NCBI RefSeq assembly: GCF_022846255.1
Contig: NZ_AP025682.1
Strand: one strand, 5' to 3'
Source: Escherichia coli
Lineage (GTDB): Bacteria > Pseudomonadota > Gammaproteobacteria > Enterobacterales > Enterobacteriaceae
Length of the DNA stretch: 64,000 nt
In this document: piece by piece, positions 9,001 through 15,000 of the stretch
Layout of the letters: every line of letters starts with the position of its first letter
Position numbering within the stretch: the first letter of the stretch is position 1
Program-made: the position numbers

Positions 9001-12000
9001 AGGCATCAAAGGCTTAGAGAACAAGGTTTAACTGATGCTGAGATAAAAGATATTGATGCAAAAGAATACCGTAAATCATCTTTGGATGAGAAGTCATCAT
9101 ATATATATCAGAATATACAGTCTTGTTTAGAAATATCAGACATCTATGTTGAGAATCCGGAAGAGGAAAATGTTGTTTGTCGGTACTCAGGATTGGCTAA
9201 TCAATTAATTAAATTCACTTCATTAATGAAGCGTCCCGGTATAATAACTCCATCAAATGTTGAACGTTGCATGCAGATAGCATATACAGCTAAGTTGAAC
9301 TCTGGTTGTATATCCAGGCAGGTAGGCGCTGCAGTATCTGATAGTTCATTTTCAATTAAGTCTATTGGTTGGAATGATGTACCAAGTGGTCAAGTTCCTT
9401 GCTCTTTAAGGGATAGGTTTGATTTGTCTGAGGGGATTGATGATATTGCTTACTCTGAATTCGAAAAGAACGAAAATAGTTTCATTCGAAAAATAGATAG
9501 CACTAAGATTATTTTTTTAGATGTTAAAAATAAAGGAATGAGAGCTCCATTTTGTTTTAAAACAGAATGGAATAATATCCTTGATGATAAATACAAAGAA
9601 GATCTACGGGTCGAGCATAAGTTAAATGATGATGAGTTTGCTATTATTGACAAAATAAAGTCTAACGCTAATCAAGTTTTTACAAGATCACTTCATGCTG
9701 AAGAGAATGCTTTCTTACAAATATCTAAGTATGGTGGCGTTGGTATACAGAATGGTTTTTTGTTCACAACAGCAAGCCCTTGTGAATTATGTTCTAAAAA
9801 AGCGTATCAATTAGGGATCAAACAAATATATTACATAGATCCATACCCTGGTATAGCAATGAGGAATATTTTAAACGCAGGGAGCAATAAACCATTGCTT
9901 AAGCTTTTCAATGGTGCAATAGGTAAGGCATTCCATAATTTTTACACGCCAAGAATGGCTTATAAAGATGAGCTTTCAGCAAGATCTAGGGGGTGAAAAT
10001 ATTGATACAGGTAAAGGCAACGAACCAGAAATGCTCGAGACTATTCTGGCTAAGTCTGCCGGGCGATAAGCACGAGTGCATATGCTGTTCCAAAAGTCTT
10101 CTATTCAATAAATTACGAAGTGCTAACTAACTGACCATGTACAATAAGAACAAATCGCCTTGAATTGCTCTTGATTGAATGGTGAAGAATTATGAGGGTG
10201 ATAGTCCTTACCACCCTCAATTAAAATTAAAGGTATTTACGTGAGAAATTTTTCTTAACCACACTACTAATAAAACTATTTAGTCCATGCCCATCCTGGG
10301 CTAGCGCTTTCATCTTAGAGACCGTTGAAGCACCCAGTTTTGTAGAATCGTAACGTATTTCCATCCATCTTTAAACTGTACTGTGATAACATCGGGAGTA
10401 ATCTCATAAAACACTATTCCCGAATTACCGCCTTAATTAGCATAAGTTGGCATTTTTAATTCTTATTAAATTATTGCAGCAAGTCGCTGCACTCTAGTCA
10501 TATGACCCCATGCTAAACCTAATTGTTGAGCTAAGTCATAATTTCGATTATTTGATGAACGTAAGTTATTTGACAGGCAGAATTAACCATACACAGTAAT
10601 ATCCGTTTCTGGCACATAGCAGTCCTATAGATAGTGGCATACAGTCATAGATGGTCGATTGGAGGAGGTGCAAATTCTCCCATACAAAAAATACGTAAAA
10701 TCAATAACAGCTGGAAATTATTTAATAATCAAATTATCGGAAGTTCACCAGCCAGCCGCAGTATTCTGCCACGACAAGTTGCTGCGGCTTTTTATGTTTA
10801 ACGGATAAACAGCCAGACCAGCAGACACGCCACCGCGGGCACCGCAAAATCCATCAGACTTGCCACATCCCATGCACGAGGATCAAAACCGCCCCACCAC
10901 GGCATGTTAATCCGCTTGCCATGCCCGAACATTTCAATCCAGCGATATTCTGCCTGGGTGTGTTCACGCGCAATGAAGAACGTACAACCGGCTATCGCCC
11001 CGTAAGCCCAGTTTCCGGTAAAAAGACCAATCAGTAGCTGCGCAGCCACAGCACAAAGTGCATGAAGGAAAGGTGTTATATCCATTACTCCTCCTTTATC
11101 AGATATCACTTCGGGAAGTTGATAACAACTTTAATTCTGACTCAAGTTCATCAACTCTTTCAGTCAGTTTCTGGATATGGTGAATCAGTGGAACAACCAG
11201 ACGTTCGTACATTACACCTTCGACAACAAGGCCATTGCTGGAAATAGCTTCAGGAGCATCATCTTCGTTAGCTGGTCGCCAGTGTACAAACTGAGGAGCA
11301 ATTTCTCCCACTTCCTCGGCAATCAATCCGTAGAATCCCCAGTCACTCCTGTCATTTTCGCATTGCGACCTGTACCACACAGGGCGCATCCTGAAAATGA
11401 GATCGGCGTGCTCTGAATCTATTGTCTCTACTGAATGTTTATAGCGAATAGACGATGTTGACCGCAGTACAGACGAAATTGCAGGGTCAGGATTAAGATA
11501 AAGATTTGCCGCCGCTGTAGTCGTGCCCAATTCCCATAAATAAAACGCTTCACGGCCAGTCAGCGGGTAAAAATCTCCACCATAACGACCGCTTTCCAGA
11601 TCGTTCACTTCCAGTTTGTTTTTCAGCTTATTATCAACTTCAGTTTTTGTGTATCTGGTGCTGATATCCTGCTTTGCACTGGTCATATCAGTCTGAAGCG
11701 TTGATACTTTTCCGTTAATTGAGGAAATATCTTCCTTAGTTTTACTGACATCTCCCTTTAGCGTGGTGATATCTCCTGGAATTACTGTCGATGTAGCCAT
11801 TTGTCTCCCTCACATCCAGCCACGAAGTTGATGCTCAACAACAACCGCATATTTATCGAATATTGACGATTTTTTTGCATCATTAATGATGCGCACGTTT
11901 ACAAAATATCCGTCTTCCTTAACACATACCGGTTCGCCATCTTCAGTCAGTTCTCCGGTTTCTTTGTACACGTTACCTATCACGTCAATAAGAATATTAT

Positions 12001-15000
12001 CCTGCATCGACTCGTCATCATAATAGCCAGTGCTCTCCATAAAGGCCGAAAAGTCGGCCCTGTCTGCAAATTTGAGTGTTAAATCTTTCATTAGATTGAC
12101 TCCCCCACCTGAGCATCAGTCAATGCCTTGTGCCATATTCTGAAATTCCTGACATGACCAAATAAATGACGTAACCCGGCAGTAGTCTGGCCTCCAATAC
12201 GGATAATTGCGGTGTTCTGAATACAGGACCATGTGGTTTTTGTTTCGCTGGATATACGCCCGTTACTTACTGAGCACGTAGACTGATCTGACTTTACACG
12301 CATCCCCATAACCATTTTTTCAAGCGATGCGTTTTCGTTTACCCGTCTGTTAGCTCCTCCAATATCGCAATAAGGAAATCCGTCGTAATCTGTTGAACGA
12401 CCGAAGCCAAGAATAATAGCCGCTCCGGTTTGATGACCGCCGGTGTCAAAAACACGCGGAGCTGCATTTGGCGTTTTATACCAGTTCTTATGTACCTCAC
12501 AAAGAACCGTAAAAGGAAGATTATAAAGATTATTCTTAATGGGAACTGTAACTATATCGCTTGCGCGGGTCGCCGCCGTCGTTCCTGATATAATAAAAGA
12601 TGATACACAAGGCCCATTTTCTACTTGTGGGGTGGCCAGATAAATATAGTCACCAGATACGGTTGCCCCGCCCTGCTTAGGAGAATACTGTATCTGAGAA
12701 CCTATTTTTAACTCCCCATCAATTGCCTGAATTGTTGCCTCTGCAAAAATCCATCCGGTAGCTTCGTCCTTTCTGACTCTCGCAGTAATCCTTGAGGCAG
12801 CACCGCCTGTCATATTAATTTCAAGCGTTTGTGTATCAATATACGCATCACCAAGAAAAGTTGTTGCGCTACCGTCATATTTATCAAACCGGATACGCAA
12901 CCTTACCTGCAGTTCTGTTTTAAAACGACATGAGGTTGTCACGTGTTTATTATCGCCTGAGACATCAACTGACTTTGTTGCAGCAATTGATGCCATATTA
13001 ATGGCTGAGGTTTGCCCAATCAGAGAATCGTTGCAGACAAACTTTCCATAGGTAAAACCAAAACTATCCGTCCCTGTTTCGGGCACATCCATATTTGACG
13101 ATCGCCCCCAACTGGCAGGGTTTTCCGAATTGAGCATGTAGTTTGTTCTTTGCCCCTCAATAAGCAGGCCATCACGTTCAAACCGTGGCTCGTCAATGGC
13201 AGCCTCTGTCAGCACACCAGATTTATTAATGTAAGTTGCTTTTGATGCGCGTTTAAACTTTACAACCTTATCGCCAGGCATCGTTATTTCATCATCACCA
13301 ATAACAATCTTTTTATATGACGGCGAAAAGCCCGTAATCATATCCAGTGAATCGTTAAACGGTATCCACACATCGGGAAGCGGCTGCAATACTTGTTTAT
13401 ACGGCTCCGCAGCCTGGCTTGCATACTCTCTGGCTGCGTCTTCACTTGCTTTTGCAGCCGTCTGGCTTGCAGCGGATGCTTTCGCCGAGTTAGCCGCCGC
13501 AGTCTCGCTCGCCTTTGCGTTGGTTTCACTGGTTTTTGCAGCTTTTTGACTGTTGGCTGATGCAGTGGCAGAAGCAGCCGCCGCGCTTGCAGAGCCAGCT
13601 GCAGCACTCTCGCTTTCGGCTGCTGCATCCTGACTGCTTTTCGCCGCAGTTTCACTGGCTTTGGCATTCGTTTCGCTGGTTTTCGCTGCCGTCTGGCTGG
13701 ACTTTGCGTTGGTTTCGCTGGTTTTTGCAGCTTTTTGACTGTTGGCTGATGCAGTGGCAGAAGAAGCCGCCGCACTTGCAGAACCAGCTGCAGCACTCTC
13801 GCTTTCGGCTGCTGCATCCTGACTGCTTTTCGCCGCAGTTTCACTGGCTTTGGCATTCGTTTCGCTGGTTTTCGCTGCCGTCTGGCTGGACTTTGCGTTG
13901 GTTTCGCTCGTCTTTGCGGCTGTCTCGCTGTTTTTCGCATTGGTTTCTGATTTTTTGGCTGCTGTCGCGGAGTTTGCCGATGCAGTCTGTGAGGTCGCTG
14001 CCGCCTGTGCGCTGTTAGCTGCATTCGTTTCTGAGGTTTTCGCCGCGTTCTTCGATGATGCCGCTGCAGTTTCGGATTTCTTTGCCGCCGCTGCGCTCTG
14101 AGAGGCGGCTTCGGCGTTGCGTGCCGCTTCTTCCACCATTTCCTGAAAACGGCGCAATGCCTCCGGCATGACATCATCTTCCGTCATGGCACCGAGAAAA
14201 TCATTCAGCGTCCCCGGACTGGAACCTTCATAGACGGTAATGGTCCCAACATGTGATGGCTGAGAACCCTCAATCCACAGGATGACGCTGTACTGACCAT
14301 ACTCAACGTCCATACTGTAACGCCCGGCTTCATCAGGATTTTCAGAGGTCACCGTGTTCACCAATACCGTGGTGCTGTTACGCTTTGCCTTCAGTTGAAT
14401 AGTGCAGTTCTGTATTGGTTTTCCCGCACCATCTTTCAGCACACCTGAGATTTTTACTGCTGCCATATCCACTCCACAAAAAAGCCCGCCTGAACCGGCG
14501 GGCTGTCATAACACTGTGTTACCTGGCTAATCAGAACTTATAACCGACACCCACGATGAAACCGTCAGTGCGCCAGTCGCCACTGCCGGAGCCTTCATAA
14601 GCAATATCAATGGCCACGGATTCGGTCGGGTTAAACTGCACGCCAGCTCCCCACGCCAGAGACGTGTTGCTGTGGCGATCGTCATCACTTCCGGTCAGCA
14701 CATCGTGCGTTTTCCCCTTGTTGTCAGTTACGCGGAGATAATCCCCGGAGAACGTCGAAACACGGCTGTAAGCCACACCTGCCATCGCATAAGCACTGAA
14801 CCATTCATTCACGCGTACAGATGGCCCCGCCATCATGCTGAACCAGCGGTTACGCACTGAATCTTCATGCCAGCGGGTATCGCTGTAATGCGTTTTTTGC
14901 TCATCTTTGGCATTGGCATAACTGAATGACGTCACCAGCCCCAGCGTGTCCGTAAACTCATAACGGTATTTCACGTTAATCCCGTTCAGATCATCGCTGC

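What the first reader, a model, noticed from the sequence alone, without database searches (positions are those of the whole stretch)
10798..12091. Three small genes distal to the side tail fibre, including a membrane protein and a chaperone-domain-like protein
After stf come a 93-aa hypothetical, a 233-aa protein whose C-terminus resembles the self-cleaving chaperone domain of tail spikes, and a 103-aa membrane protein. This is a moron-rich position in lambdoid phages and their functions are not evident.
Basis: inference. Interest (0 to 1): 0.3.

Follow-up and report, generated by a model that had tools for sequence, protein, structure and literature searches.

The report
Side tail fibre accessory gene trio
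The three small genes after the prophage's side tail fibre gene are real: two belong to a fibre gene set shared by many coliphages, including strictly lytic ones, and the third is a small membrane protein of unknown function that often sits beside receptor-binding genes; this is common rather than exceptional.

Summary
The three minus-strand ORFs exist as described. The only correction is that the membrane gene most likely starts at ATG 11085, giving 95 aa rather than 103. All three are under purifying selection (dN/dS 0.16-0.33).

The 93-aa and 233-aa genes are not morons. Together with stf they form a cassette found in 93 distinct lambdoid loci and also in lytic T1-like and 9g-like phages. 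The fibre plus 93-aa pair also occurs in T5-like and rV5-like phages.

- **stf** is a fibre with an N-terminal virion anchor and a variable C-terminal domain.
- **p93** is a small alpha+beta protein that always follows this fibre type, even where no second fibre is present. I infer it is a fibre-coupled accessory or assembly factor.
- **p233** is a short second fibre. It has a conserved N-terminal peptide (inferred docking site), a coiled coil, a small tip and a C-terminal Peptidase_S74 chaperone domain with an intact Ser116/Lys121 pair.
- **p95** is a three-helix membrane protein from an uncharacterised family (430 clusters at 50% identity, no Pfam match). In 11-12 of 15 contexts examined it directly flanks a receptor-binding gene, yet it is missing from the lytic phages that carry the same cassette. 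It is probably accessory cargo, perhaps for exclusion or envelope protection; that function is a guess.

Overall this is ordinary. Only p95 merits curiosity.

The parts
12091..14472 (-). stf (793 aa), given as context and as the first gene of the cassette. It has an N-terminal virion-attachment domain, an Ala/Ser/Thr-rich repeat shaft, and a variable C-terminal domain (residues ~371-793) that ends ...RIGGQTTAGLRHLFGHVRNFRIWHKALTDAQVGESI.
   Evidence: Pfam phage_tail_N E 2e-63. PDB 9e7m tail fibre chain matches residues 5-97 at E 3.5e-46. NCBIfam GTA_spike_fiber domain covers residues 437-637. The C-terminal part varies from 38 to 100% identity among related loci while its neighbours stay conserved.
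11810..12091 (-). p93: a 93-aa acidic alpha+beta protein. Its start codon overlaps the stf stop (TAATG). It is a fibre-coupled accessory protein of unknown biochemistry.
11099..11800 (-). p233: a short second (distal) tail fibre protein with a C-terminal self-cleaving chaperone domain.
   Evidence: The whole protein aligns to the last ~240 positions of the 1385-position phrog_3299 (E 5e-139). It is 56-60% identical to stand-alone 215-231-aa proteins in the lateral fibre loci of lytic Drexlerviridae. dN/dS 0.16.
11705..11800 (-). p233 residues 1-32 (MATSTVIPGDITTLKGDV...): an N-terminal peptide shared by otherwise unrelated second fibres. It is the inferred docking site on the proximal fibre.
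   Evidence: It is shared with the 346-aa Tritos and 351-aa ESCO3 second fibres, although the remainder is only 28-29% identical (A1). The same motif is present in Bas05, phiE31-2 and Bas25 homologues.
11456..11704 (-). p233 residues 33-115: a coiled-coil-like repeat segment (33-68) and a short pre-chaperone tip (69-115). With residues 1-32 this would form the mature fibre after cleavage.
   Evidence: Repeats align to the DT57C fibre 'DIATTYTKTEVD' repeats and to the coiled coil of the P22 gp26 needle. The tip is conserved between lambdoid and T1-like versions.
11102..11455 (-). p233 residues 116-233: Peptidase_S74 intramolecular chaperone domain. The Ser116 codon is at 11453-11455 and the Lys121 codon at 11438-11440. 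The predicted cut lies between Thr115 and Ser116.
   Evidence: Pfam PF13884 covers residues 116-172 above the gathering score. Ser116 and Lys121 are invariant in A1. They align to the Ser-to-Ala and Lys positions of MYRF 7dc3 and to the DT57C fibre chain 8hqz_d.
10798..11085 (-). p95: a 95-aa three-helix inner-membrane protein (helices 4-23, 26-52, 74-94) with the conserved motif AREHTQAEYRWI...MPWWGGFD.
   Evidence: phrog_1443 E 5e-57; no Pfam, NCBIfam or PADLOC match. AF2 pLDDT 91. The family has 430 clusters at 50% identity, all stand-alone proteins of roughly 60-140 aa. E41 and W72 are invariant; H8, G29, R40, Q44, A45, D79 and P83 are at least 90% conserved. dN/dS 0.19.
11090..11095 (-). 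Shine-Dalgarno sequence AGGAGG, 4 nt upstream of the p95 ATG.
   Evidence: Read directly from the sequence.

Best explanation
The region is the distal part of a four-gene side (lateral) tail fibre cassette, transcribed with the late tail operon.

**Stf** is the proximal fibre. Its N-terminus anchors it to the tail tip (shown by homology). Its variable C-terminal domain is the likely host-range determinant (inferred).

**p93** is translationally coupled to stf and accompanies this fibre type in every phage group examined, even where no second fibre exists. I infer that it helps the fibre's C-terminal part to fold or assemble, or stays bound to it. It would be a functional counterpart of a tail fibre assembly protein without being a homologue of one.

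**p233** is a short second fibre.
- Its conserved N-terminal ~30 residues dock it on the proximal fibre, giving a branched fibre (inferred by analogy with DT57C LtfA/LtfB).
- Its C-terminal S74 domain trimerises and folds the preceding coiled coil and tip.
- That domain then cuts itself off between Thr115 and Ser116 using Ser116 and Lys121. The residues are shown to be present; cleavage is inferred.
- The product is a stubby 115-residue-per-chain trimer.
- Its tip is conserved across phage families, so it probably binds something conserved rather than a variable O-antigen.

**p95** is not a fibre part. It is an inner-membrane protein from a widespread, uncharacterised family that is usually found next to receptor-binding genes but is dispensable for this cassette. 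My best guess, at about 1 in 3, is that it protects the infected or lysogenic cell at the envelope level. That would be superinfection exclusion or receptor-pathway interference, similar in role to the immunity genes Cor and Llp that sit beside receptor-binding genes.
For: **Operon packing.** Overlapping or 9-13-nt junctions with Shine-Dalgarno sequences, and no promoter or terminator hit inside the region.

**Conserved cassette in lambdoid loci.** The order Stf, 89-93-aa gene, second fibre (short 227-234 aa or long 345-346 aa), p95 holds in 93 distinct IMG/VR loci. The Stf C-terminus varies from 38 to 100% identity. Its neighbours are more conserved: p93 83-100% (plus diverged 89-92-aa variants at 30-53%), short p233 94-100%, p95 89-98%.

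**Same cassette in lytic phages.** Fibre, p93-like and p233-like (or longer S74) genes occur in PeterMerian, phiE31-2, ESCO3 and VogelGryff. The fibre plus p93-like pair occurs in VSe12 and pangalan. Identities to the window proteins are 44-69% for the fibre C-terminal part, 36-53% for p93 (91% in ESCO3) and 56-60% for p233. No intact p95 gene is present in any of them.

**p93 stays when the second fibre is absent.** Lambda_2E9 and three IMG/VR loci keep p93 without a second fibre.

**p233.**
- The S74 domain scores above the Pfam cut-off and Ser116/Lys121 are aligned to catalytic positions.
- The N-terminal peptide is shared by short and long second fibres.

**Selection.** dN/dS is 0.16-0.33 for all three genes.

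**p95.**
- It directly flanks an identified fibre, spike or fibre-chaperone gene in 11-12 of 15 independent contexts, spanning siphoviruses, podoviruses and myoviruses.
- In P22-like Gally it forms its own unit behind a strong terminator.
- This prophage has its lysis cassette elsewhere.

**Known precedent.** Branched two-protein lateral fibres with S74 ends are described for DT57C (PMC4728585, PMC10713586). A proximal fibre with a protruding lectin-like domain plus a distal chaperone-bearing fibre is described for IrisVonRoten (PMC11990801).
Against: - No physical interaction was tested. Docking of p233 on Stf, and any p93 contact, rest on synteny and analogy.
- The perfect linkage between p93 class and second-fibre N-terminus (88 of 88 loci) could simply reflect the genes lying about 10 nt apart.
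- The mature part of short p233 is tiny and nearly invariant, which also fits a non-receptor role.
- For p95 as an exclusion protein:
  - In the window and in P2/HP1-like prophages it is tightly coupled to late genes with no detectable promoter.
  - It also occurs in large phages that appear lytic.
  - Its sequence is much more conserved than typical exclusion proteins (60% identity between E. coli, Aeromonas and Comamonas).
  - PADLOC has no match.
  - Its topology is unresolved.
Confidence: 0.6

Rival explanations
1. p233 is not a fibre but a trans-acting chaperone for Stf, as the GenBank label 'putative lateral tail fiber chaperone' in BASEL phages suggests. Its S74 domain would help the Stf trimer fold, and nothing of p233 would end up in the virion.
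For: - Homologues are annotated this way in PeterMerian and VogelGryff.
- The short form has only 115 residues ahead of the S74 domain.
- It is nearly invariant whatever the Stf C-terminal type.
Against: - Known S74 domains act in cis on the protein that carries them (established knowledge of K1F endosialidase and T5 pb1; discussed in PMC4728585).
- Several phages with the same Stf type and p93 lack any second fibre gene (Lambda_2E9, three IMG/VR loci), so Stf does not need it.
- The same N-terminal peptide heads 346-388-aa proteins that have a substantial extra domain before the S74 part.
Confidence: 0.15
2. p93 is the adaptor that joins the second fibre to Stf, rather than an Stf assembly factor.
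For: - It lies between the two fibre genes.
- Its sequence class is perfectly linked to the N-terminal class of the second fibre: 93 aa with MATS in 76 of 76 loci, 89 aa with MVTK in 12 of 12.
Against: - It is retained where no second fibre exists.
- In a metagenomic relative the order is fibre, p95, p93-like.
- The linkage can be explained by adjacency alone.
Confidence: 0.2
3. p95 is a membrane-anchored helper for making or maturing receptor-binding proteins late in infection, not cargo.
For: - It has 0-13-nt junctions or 4-nt overlaps with the upstream fibre or spike gene in many lineages.
- It is present in large phages that appear lytic, between tailspike genes.
- It is under purifying selection.
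- The charge count favours a cytoplasmic position for the conserved loop.
Against: - Lytic T1-like, 9g-like, T5-like and rV5-like phages carry the same fibre and p93 without an intact p95.
- The upstream proteins are structurally unrelated: lectin-type fibre, S74 fibre, P22-type tailspike, pectate-lyase spikes, a fibre assembly protein.
- A copy sits in an Aeromonas chromosome away from any phage genes.
Confidence: 0.15
4. p95 is a holin or other lysis protein. It resembles class I holins in having three transmembrane helices and a small size.
For: Three helices in about 95 aa. Basic C-terminal tails in some homologues.
Against: - This prophage has a complete lysis cassette at 35249-36395: an S21-like holin, a SAR endolysin and Rz.
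- p95 is never seen next to an endolysin in the contexts examined.
- Its 34-residue loop with invariant polar residues is unlike holins.
Confidence: 0.03

Closest known systems
Branched lateral tail fibres of T5-like phage DT57C (LtfA/LtfB) and phiEco32 gp14/gp15
   Same: - Two consecutive fibre genes are present.
- The first carries the virion anchor.
- The second has a short conserved N-terminus thought to dock on the first.
- S74 self-cleaving ends are present.
- p233 matches the DT57C fibre chain 8hqz_d (E 2e-7), including its 'TYTKTEVD' repeats (PMC4728585, PMC10713586).
   Different: - Here the proximal fibre has no S74 end. It ends instead in a variable domain with NCBIfam GTA_spike_fiber similarity.
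- A 93-aa gene lies between the two fibre genes.
- The second fibre is very short, with a 115-residue mature part.
IrisVonRoten (Bas32) proximal fibre Gp22 with C-terminal galectin-like domain plus distal chaperone-bearing fibre Gp24
   Same: A proximal fibre with a protruding C-terminal domain is followed by a distal fibre carrying an intramolecular chaperone (PMC11990801). The T5-like phage VSe12 has the same fibre C-terminus and a p93 homologue.
   Different: I did not compare the IrisVonRoten sequences directly. Its distal fibre is a large T-shaped protein with two receptor-binding domains. The window's p233 has no comparable domain.
Peptidase S74 intramolecular chaperone domains (K1F endosialidase, T5 pb1, MYRF)
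   Same: A Pfam match above threshold, the Ser-x4-Lys pair, and a C-terminal position after a coiled-coil or fibre segment.
   Different: The protein is a stand-alone 233-aa gene product rather than the end of a long spike or fibre. It aligns to only the last ~240 positions of a 1385-position fibre family.
Lambda Stf/Tfa
   Same: The Stf N-terminal domain and the position after J and lom are shared. A small gene directly after stf could play the assembly role.
   Different: p93 has no match to any Pfam model, including tail fibre assembly families. Its predicted fold gave no match to a known fibre chaperone.
Immunity genes beside receptor-binding genes (T5 Llp; Cor of phi80, N15 and T1) and the HK97 gp15 membrane moron
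   Same: These are small envelope proteins encoded beside or within tail and receptor-binding genes, as p95 is. This is general knowledge; the llp position is noted in PMC4728585.
   Different: Llp and Cor are lipoproteins; p95 has no conserved lipobox cysteine (A3, A5). p95 shows no sequence relation to any PADLOC model. No exclusion phenotype is known for it.

Membership tests
Peptidase S74 / intramolecular chaperone auto-processing domain (p233 C-terminus) | Sequence match to the family model above its curated threshold | tested here: met
   PF13884 E 7.1e-6, 26.7 bits against a cut-off of 22, residues 116-172.
Peptidase S74 / intramolecular chaperone auto-processing domain (p233 C-terminus) | Catalytic Ser and Lys five residues apart at the start of the domain | tested here: met
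   S116-S-I-R-Y-K121. Both residues are invariant in A1. They align to the Ser(Ala)/Lys positions of MYRF 7dc3 and to DT57C 8hqz_d.
Peptidase S74 / intramolecular chaperone auto-processing domain (p233 C-terminus) | Autoproteolytic release after trimer folding | not testable with these tools
   Requires protein expression and an S116A or K121A mutant.
Branched (two-protein) lateral tail fibre | First fibre gene carries the virion-attachment domain and the second lacks one | tested here: met
   Stf has phage_tail_N and matches 9e7m. p233 has no such domain.
Branched (two-protein) lateral tail fibre | Second fibre has a short conserved N-terminus shared among otherwise different distal fibres | tested here: met
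   The MAT(S/V)TVIPxDIxxLK motif is shared by the 233-, 346-, 351-, 231-, 215- and 388-aa proteins.
Branched (two-protein) lateral tail fibre | Physical attachment of the second fibre to the first | not testable with these tools
Complex prediction, cryo-EM or genetics would be needed.
Tail fibre assembly proteins (lambda Tfa, Mu gpU type), considered for p93 | Sequence or fold similarity to known tail fibre assembly families | tested here: not met
Tail fibre assembly proteins (lambda Tfa, Mu gpU type), considered for p93 | Gene directly downstream of, and co-inherited with, its fibre gene | tested here: met
   TAATG overlap with stf. All 181 phage records place it against a fibre gene.
Moron (autonomous promoter-gene-terminator insert, absent from related phages), considered for p95 | Present or absent between otherwise conserved neighbours | tested here: met
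   No intact copy in lytic phages with the same cassette. It sits in the tailspike-to-int gap of Gally and the tfa-to-sheath gap of phiHAP-1.
Moron (autonomous promoter-gene-terminator insert, absent from related phages), considered for p95 | Own promoter and terminator | tested here: inconclusive
   In the window there is no minus-strand promoter-like site in or upstream of the genes and no terminator; the only minus-strand promoter-like hit lies downstream of p95. In Gally a 9-bp terminator lies upstream and a weak promoter-like site (9 of 12) follows it, not above chance.
Holin, considered for p95 | Part of a lysis cassette with an endolysin | tested here: not met
   The lysis cassette is at 35249-36395. 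No endolysin neighbour was seen in any context examined.
Known anti-phage defence or exclusion proteins, considered for p95 | Match to a defence-system model | tested here: not met
   PADLOC gives no family at E up to 0.01. BFVD fold search gives no hit at E up to 0.001.

The most novel reading that the evidence does not exclude
p95 represents an undescribed, widespread family of small inner-membrane proteins: 430 clusters at 50% identity across Gammaproteobacteria and at least one Betaproteobacterium. Members carry a near-invariant polar motif (H8, R40-E41, Q44, W72, D79).

Phages of all three tail types place this gene next to their receptor-binding genes. It would act on the host envelope or entry pathway, either as a receptor-linked exclusion factor or as an interference enzyme.
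Probability: 0.25. Interest if true: 0.6.

Novelty: new member of a known kind. Interest (0 to 1): 0.33.

Why it matters
Parts of this 1.9-kb stretch occur in 1892 of 5426 complete E. coli genomes, and related cassettes occur in lytic coliphages, yet the two small genes are annotated only as hypothetical proteins.

Recognising p93 and p233 as fibre cassette parts helps with annotation, with host-range prediction and with engineering of chimeric side fibres. Anyone transplanting this fibre type should probably move p93 with it.

p95 gives a concrete and cheap target for experiment: a 95-aa protein with a handful of invariant residues, sitting beside receptor-binding genes in many phage lineages.

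Tried and rejected
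- **Family scans.** Pfam, NCBIfam and PADLOC gave nothing for p93 and p95.
- **Fold searches.**
  - AFDB was unavailable.
  - BFVD gave no significant match for p95 and only uncharacterised proteins for p93.
- **Exhaustive profile search with p95.** It found only stand-alone proteins of similar size, so no domain fusions offer a functional clue.
- **Reaching distant p95 loci in IMG/VR.** The closer alignment returned only near-identical lambdoid loci.
- **Holin idea for p95.** Rejected after the lysis cassette was found elsewhere.
- **p95 topology.** I first read the conserved loop as periplasmic from the basic C-terminal tails. The charge count over two alignments points the other way, so I leave the topology open.
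- **Literature searches.** Five full-text searches turned up no paper on the 93-aa or 95-aa families.
- **Decaying remnant idea for short p233.** Rejected on dN/dS 0.16 and intact reading frames in about 50 loci.

Full report
**Observation.** They lie directly downstream of a 793-aa stf (12091-14472), lom (14531-15130) and J (15198-18677).

The junctions are those of an operon:
- the stf stop overlaps the p93 start (TAATG);
- 9 nt containing GGGAG separate p93 from p233;
- 13 nt containing AGGAGG separate the p233 stop from an ATG at 11085.

That ATG, not the GTG at 11109 inside p233, is the likely start of the membrane gene. All homologues begin there, the PHROG alignment starts at residue 9, and both GenBank and PGAP annotate 95 aa. 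I call the products p93, p233 and p95.

Pairwise dN/dS among dozens of distinct alleles from related loci is 0.33, 0.16 and 0.19. All three therefore encode proteins under purifying selection.

**The cassette.** I fetched 152 loci around p93 and p95 relatives from IMG/VR. They collapse to 93 distinct loci with the same order:
1. Stf;
2. a gene of 89-93 aa;
3. a second fibre gene, either short (227-234 aa, as in the window) or long (345-346 aa, as in phage Tritos);
4. p95.

A few loci lack the second fibre. Across these loci the Stf C-terminal part (residues ~371-793) ranges from 38 to 100% identity to the window. The neighbours are more conserved:
- p93: 83-100%, with two diverged variants of 89 and 92 aa at 30-53%;
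- short p233: 94-100%;
- p95: 89-98%.

Short and long second fibres combine freely with the different Stf C-terminal types. The variable, probably host-range-determining element is therefore the Stf C-terminus.

That region carries an NCBIfam GTA_spike_fiber match. It ends in a motif...RIGGQT..G.RHLFGH.RNFR.W..L.D.Q..., that is conserved in fibres of very different phages.

**p93 and p233 are fibre cassette parts, not morons.** Lytic phages carry the same cassette:
- The T1-like phages PeterMerian and phiE31-2 have the fibre, a p93-like gene and a p233-like gene.
- The 9g-like ESCO3 and the Seuratvirus VogelGryff have the fibre, a p93-like gene and a longer S74-bearing fibre.
- The T5-like VSe12 and the rV5-like pangalan have the fibre plus a p93-like gene.

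Identities to the window proteins are 44-69% for the fibre C-terminal part, 36-53% for p93 (91% in ESCO3) and 56-60% for p233. In total 181 phage records carry a p93 homologue, always abutting a tail fibre gene.

p93 is retained where there is no second fibre, as in Lambda_2E9 and three IMG/VR loci. Its role is therefore tied to the first fibre. It has no Pfam or NCBIfam match. Its AlphaFold2 model (pLDDT 86) is a small alpha+beta sandwich with only generic structural neighbours.

I infer an assembly or accessory role for the fibre's C-terminal part. This would be analogous to a tail fibre assembly protein without homology to one. The adaptor alternative is kept open by one observation: the p93 class and the N-terminal class of the second fibre are linked in 88 of 88 loci. 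Adjacency alone could explain that.

**p233.** The C-terminal half is a Peptidase_S74 intramolecular chaperone domain, matched above the Pfam threshold. Ser116 and Lys121 are invariant across short and long second fibres. They align to the catalytic positions in the MYRF auto-processing domain and to the DT57C lateral fibre chain.

The whole protein aligns to the last ~240 positions of a 1385-position fibre family. Its first ~30 residues (MATSTVIPGDITTLKGDV...) are shared with otherwise dissimilar second fibres of 215-388 aa.

This matches the pattern described for branched lateral fibres. There, LtfB of DT57C shares only its N-terminal 45 residues with phiEco32 gp15 and attaches through LtfA (PMC4728585, PMC10713586). 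It also matches the proximal-plus-distal fibres modelled for IrisVonRoten (PMC11990801).

I therefore read p233 as a short distal fibre. It would dock by its N-terminus and fold with the help of its own S74 domain. It would then lose that domain by cleavage between Thr115 and Ser116.

The GenBank label 'putative lateral tail fiber chaperone' implies a trans role for Stf. Phages with this Stf type but no second fibre argue against that.

**p95.** The AlphaFold2 model is confident (pLDDT 91) and shows three helices at 4-23, 26-52 and 74-94. An exhaustive profile search found 430 clusters at 50% identity. All are stand-alone proteins of similar size, without known domains or fusions.

Across this breadth E41 and W72 are invariant. 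H8, G29, R40, Q44, A45, D79 and P83 are at least 90% conserved. That degree of conservation is unusual for a small phage membrane protein. Versions from E. coli, Aeromonas and Comamonas are about 60% identical.

I examined 15 independent genomic contexts. In 11-12 of them p95 directly flanks an identified receptor-binding-type gene:
- after the lambdoid Stf cassette;
- after a P22-like tailspike (Gally);
- after a tail fibre assembly gene in phiHAP-1;
- between spikes and fibres in Cobetia phage Carin-5;
- between tailspike genes in a Salmonella contig with baseplate-wedge genes;
- after giant or S74-ended fibres in Comamonas, Aeromonas and Leclercia prophages;
- after spike-like or Stf-like genes in two metagenomic contigs;
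- as a truncated remnant after a tailspike in phage 6947.

Exceptions are an Aeromonas chromosomal copy among housekeeping genes and a copy in a mobile-element-like context.

p95 is absent, at least as an intact gene, from the lytic phages that carry the same fibre, p93 and p233 genes. It therefore cannot be needed to build this fibre. In Gally it follows a strong terminator and a weak promoter-like site, forming a separate unit. In the window it is coupled to p233 with no detectable promoter.

It is not the holin. The prophage's lysis cassette (S21-like holin, SAR endolysin, Rz) lies at 35249-36395. PADLOC and viral fold libraries give nothing. Topology is unresolved: the conserved loop holds about 5.4 Lys+Arg against 0.6 in the C-terminal tail, which favours a cytoplasmic loop, but the evidence is thin.

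My best guess is accessory cargo acting at the envelope, for exclusion or receptor-pathway interference, by analogy with the immunity genes Cor and Llp that sit beside receptor-binding genes. I put this at roughly one in three and mark it as inference.

**Verdict.** The cassette is common, since parts of it occur in 1892 of 5426 complete E. coli genomes, and its architecture fits known branched lateral fibres. Only p95 carries some novelty.

Noticed in passing
window 8218-9996 (+ strand): A 592-aa protein with an N-terminal P-loop region and a C-terminal cytidine/dCMP deaminase domain. It matches PADLOC dCTPase (423 bits) and NCBIfam anti-phage dCTP deaminase (370.7 bits, just under the cut-off of 400). 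It lies in a low-GC island (0.27-0.36) between the prophage tail end and host genes. The same gene is annotated only as 'hypothetical protein' in E. coli SF-468.
   Followed up: partly
window ~13340-14180 (within stf): An Ala/Ser/Thr-rich shaft region with an internal duplication of about 80 aa (the KSSQTAAKTSETNAKASETAAKSSQDAAAESESAAAGSASAAA block occurs twice). AT skew is extreme, down to -0.60. The region generates long spurious ORFs in other frames and on the opposite strand, for example 13338-14177 and 13515-14018.
   Followed up: no
window ~10686-10808: Homology to other genomes breaks at two recurrent points downstream of p95. One is right at its stop codon (~10808). The other is about 105 nt further on (~10690). 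An imperfect hairpin GCCGCAG-N20-CTGCGGC lies at 10755-10788 and was not called as a terminator. This looks like the 3' edge of the exchangeable cassette.
   Followed up: partly
window 35249-36669: tRNA-Thr and tRNA-Asn (36514-36669) sit immediately upstream of an S21-type lysis cassette. The cassette comprises a 71-aa holin (36180-36395), a 165-aa SAR-type endolysin (35683-36180) and Rz with an embedded Rz1-like ORF (35249-35698).
   Followed up: no
L242 (Escherichia phage 6947) 4001-4159; BFVD entry A0A6B9XIW9 (phage anhysbys, 42 aa): Some E. coli siphoviruses carry unannotated or truncated p95-like remnants. In phage 6947 the remnant matches residues 41-93 at about 41% identity and lies right after a tailspike or fibre gene. 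This suggests loss of the gene in those lineages.
   Followed up: partly
phage records OR847733.1 (Listeria phage LM 4-11-1, 1.8 kb), MG065676.1 and MG065655.1 (Campylobacter phages A116 and C2): These records carry p93 homologues identical in score to those of rV5-like coliphages. They are probably mislabelled or contaminated entries.
   Followed up: no
L158 (metagenomic contig) 89-2756: In a distant relative the gene order is permuted: Stf-C-like tail protein, p95-like, p93-like (phrog_18574), then another ORF, with 4-nt overlaps. p95 and p93 homologues therefore co-occur with this fibre type even at about 40% identity.
   Followed up: partly
window 10400-12300 versus complete E. coli genomes: The best match to any of 5426 complete E. 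coli genomes is only 96.3% identical over this stretch. The window therefore does not come from one of those assemblies.
   Followed up: no
IMG/VR loci L090, L095, L097, L102 and others: Many IMG/VR prophage records end 3-9 nt after the p95 stop codon. p95 is thus routinely the last gene included in the predicted viral region.
   Followed up: no
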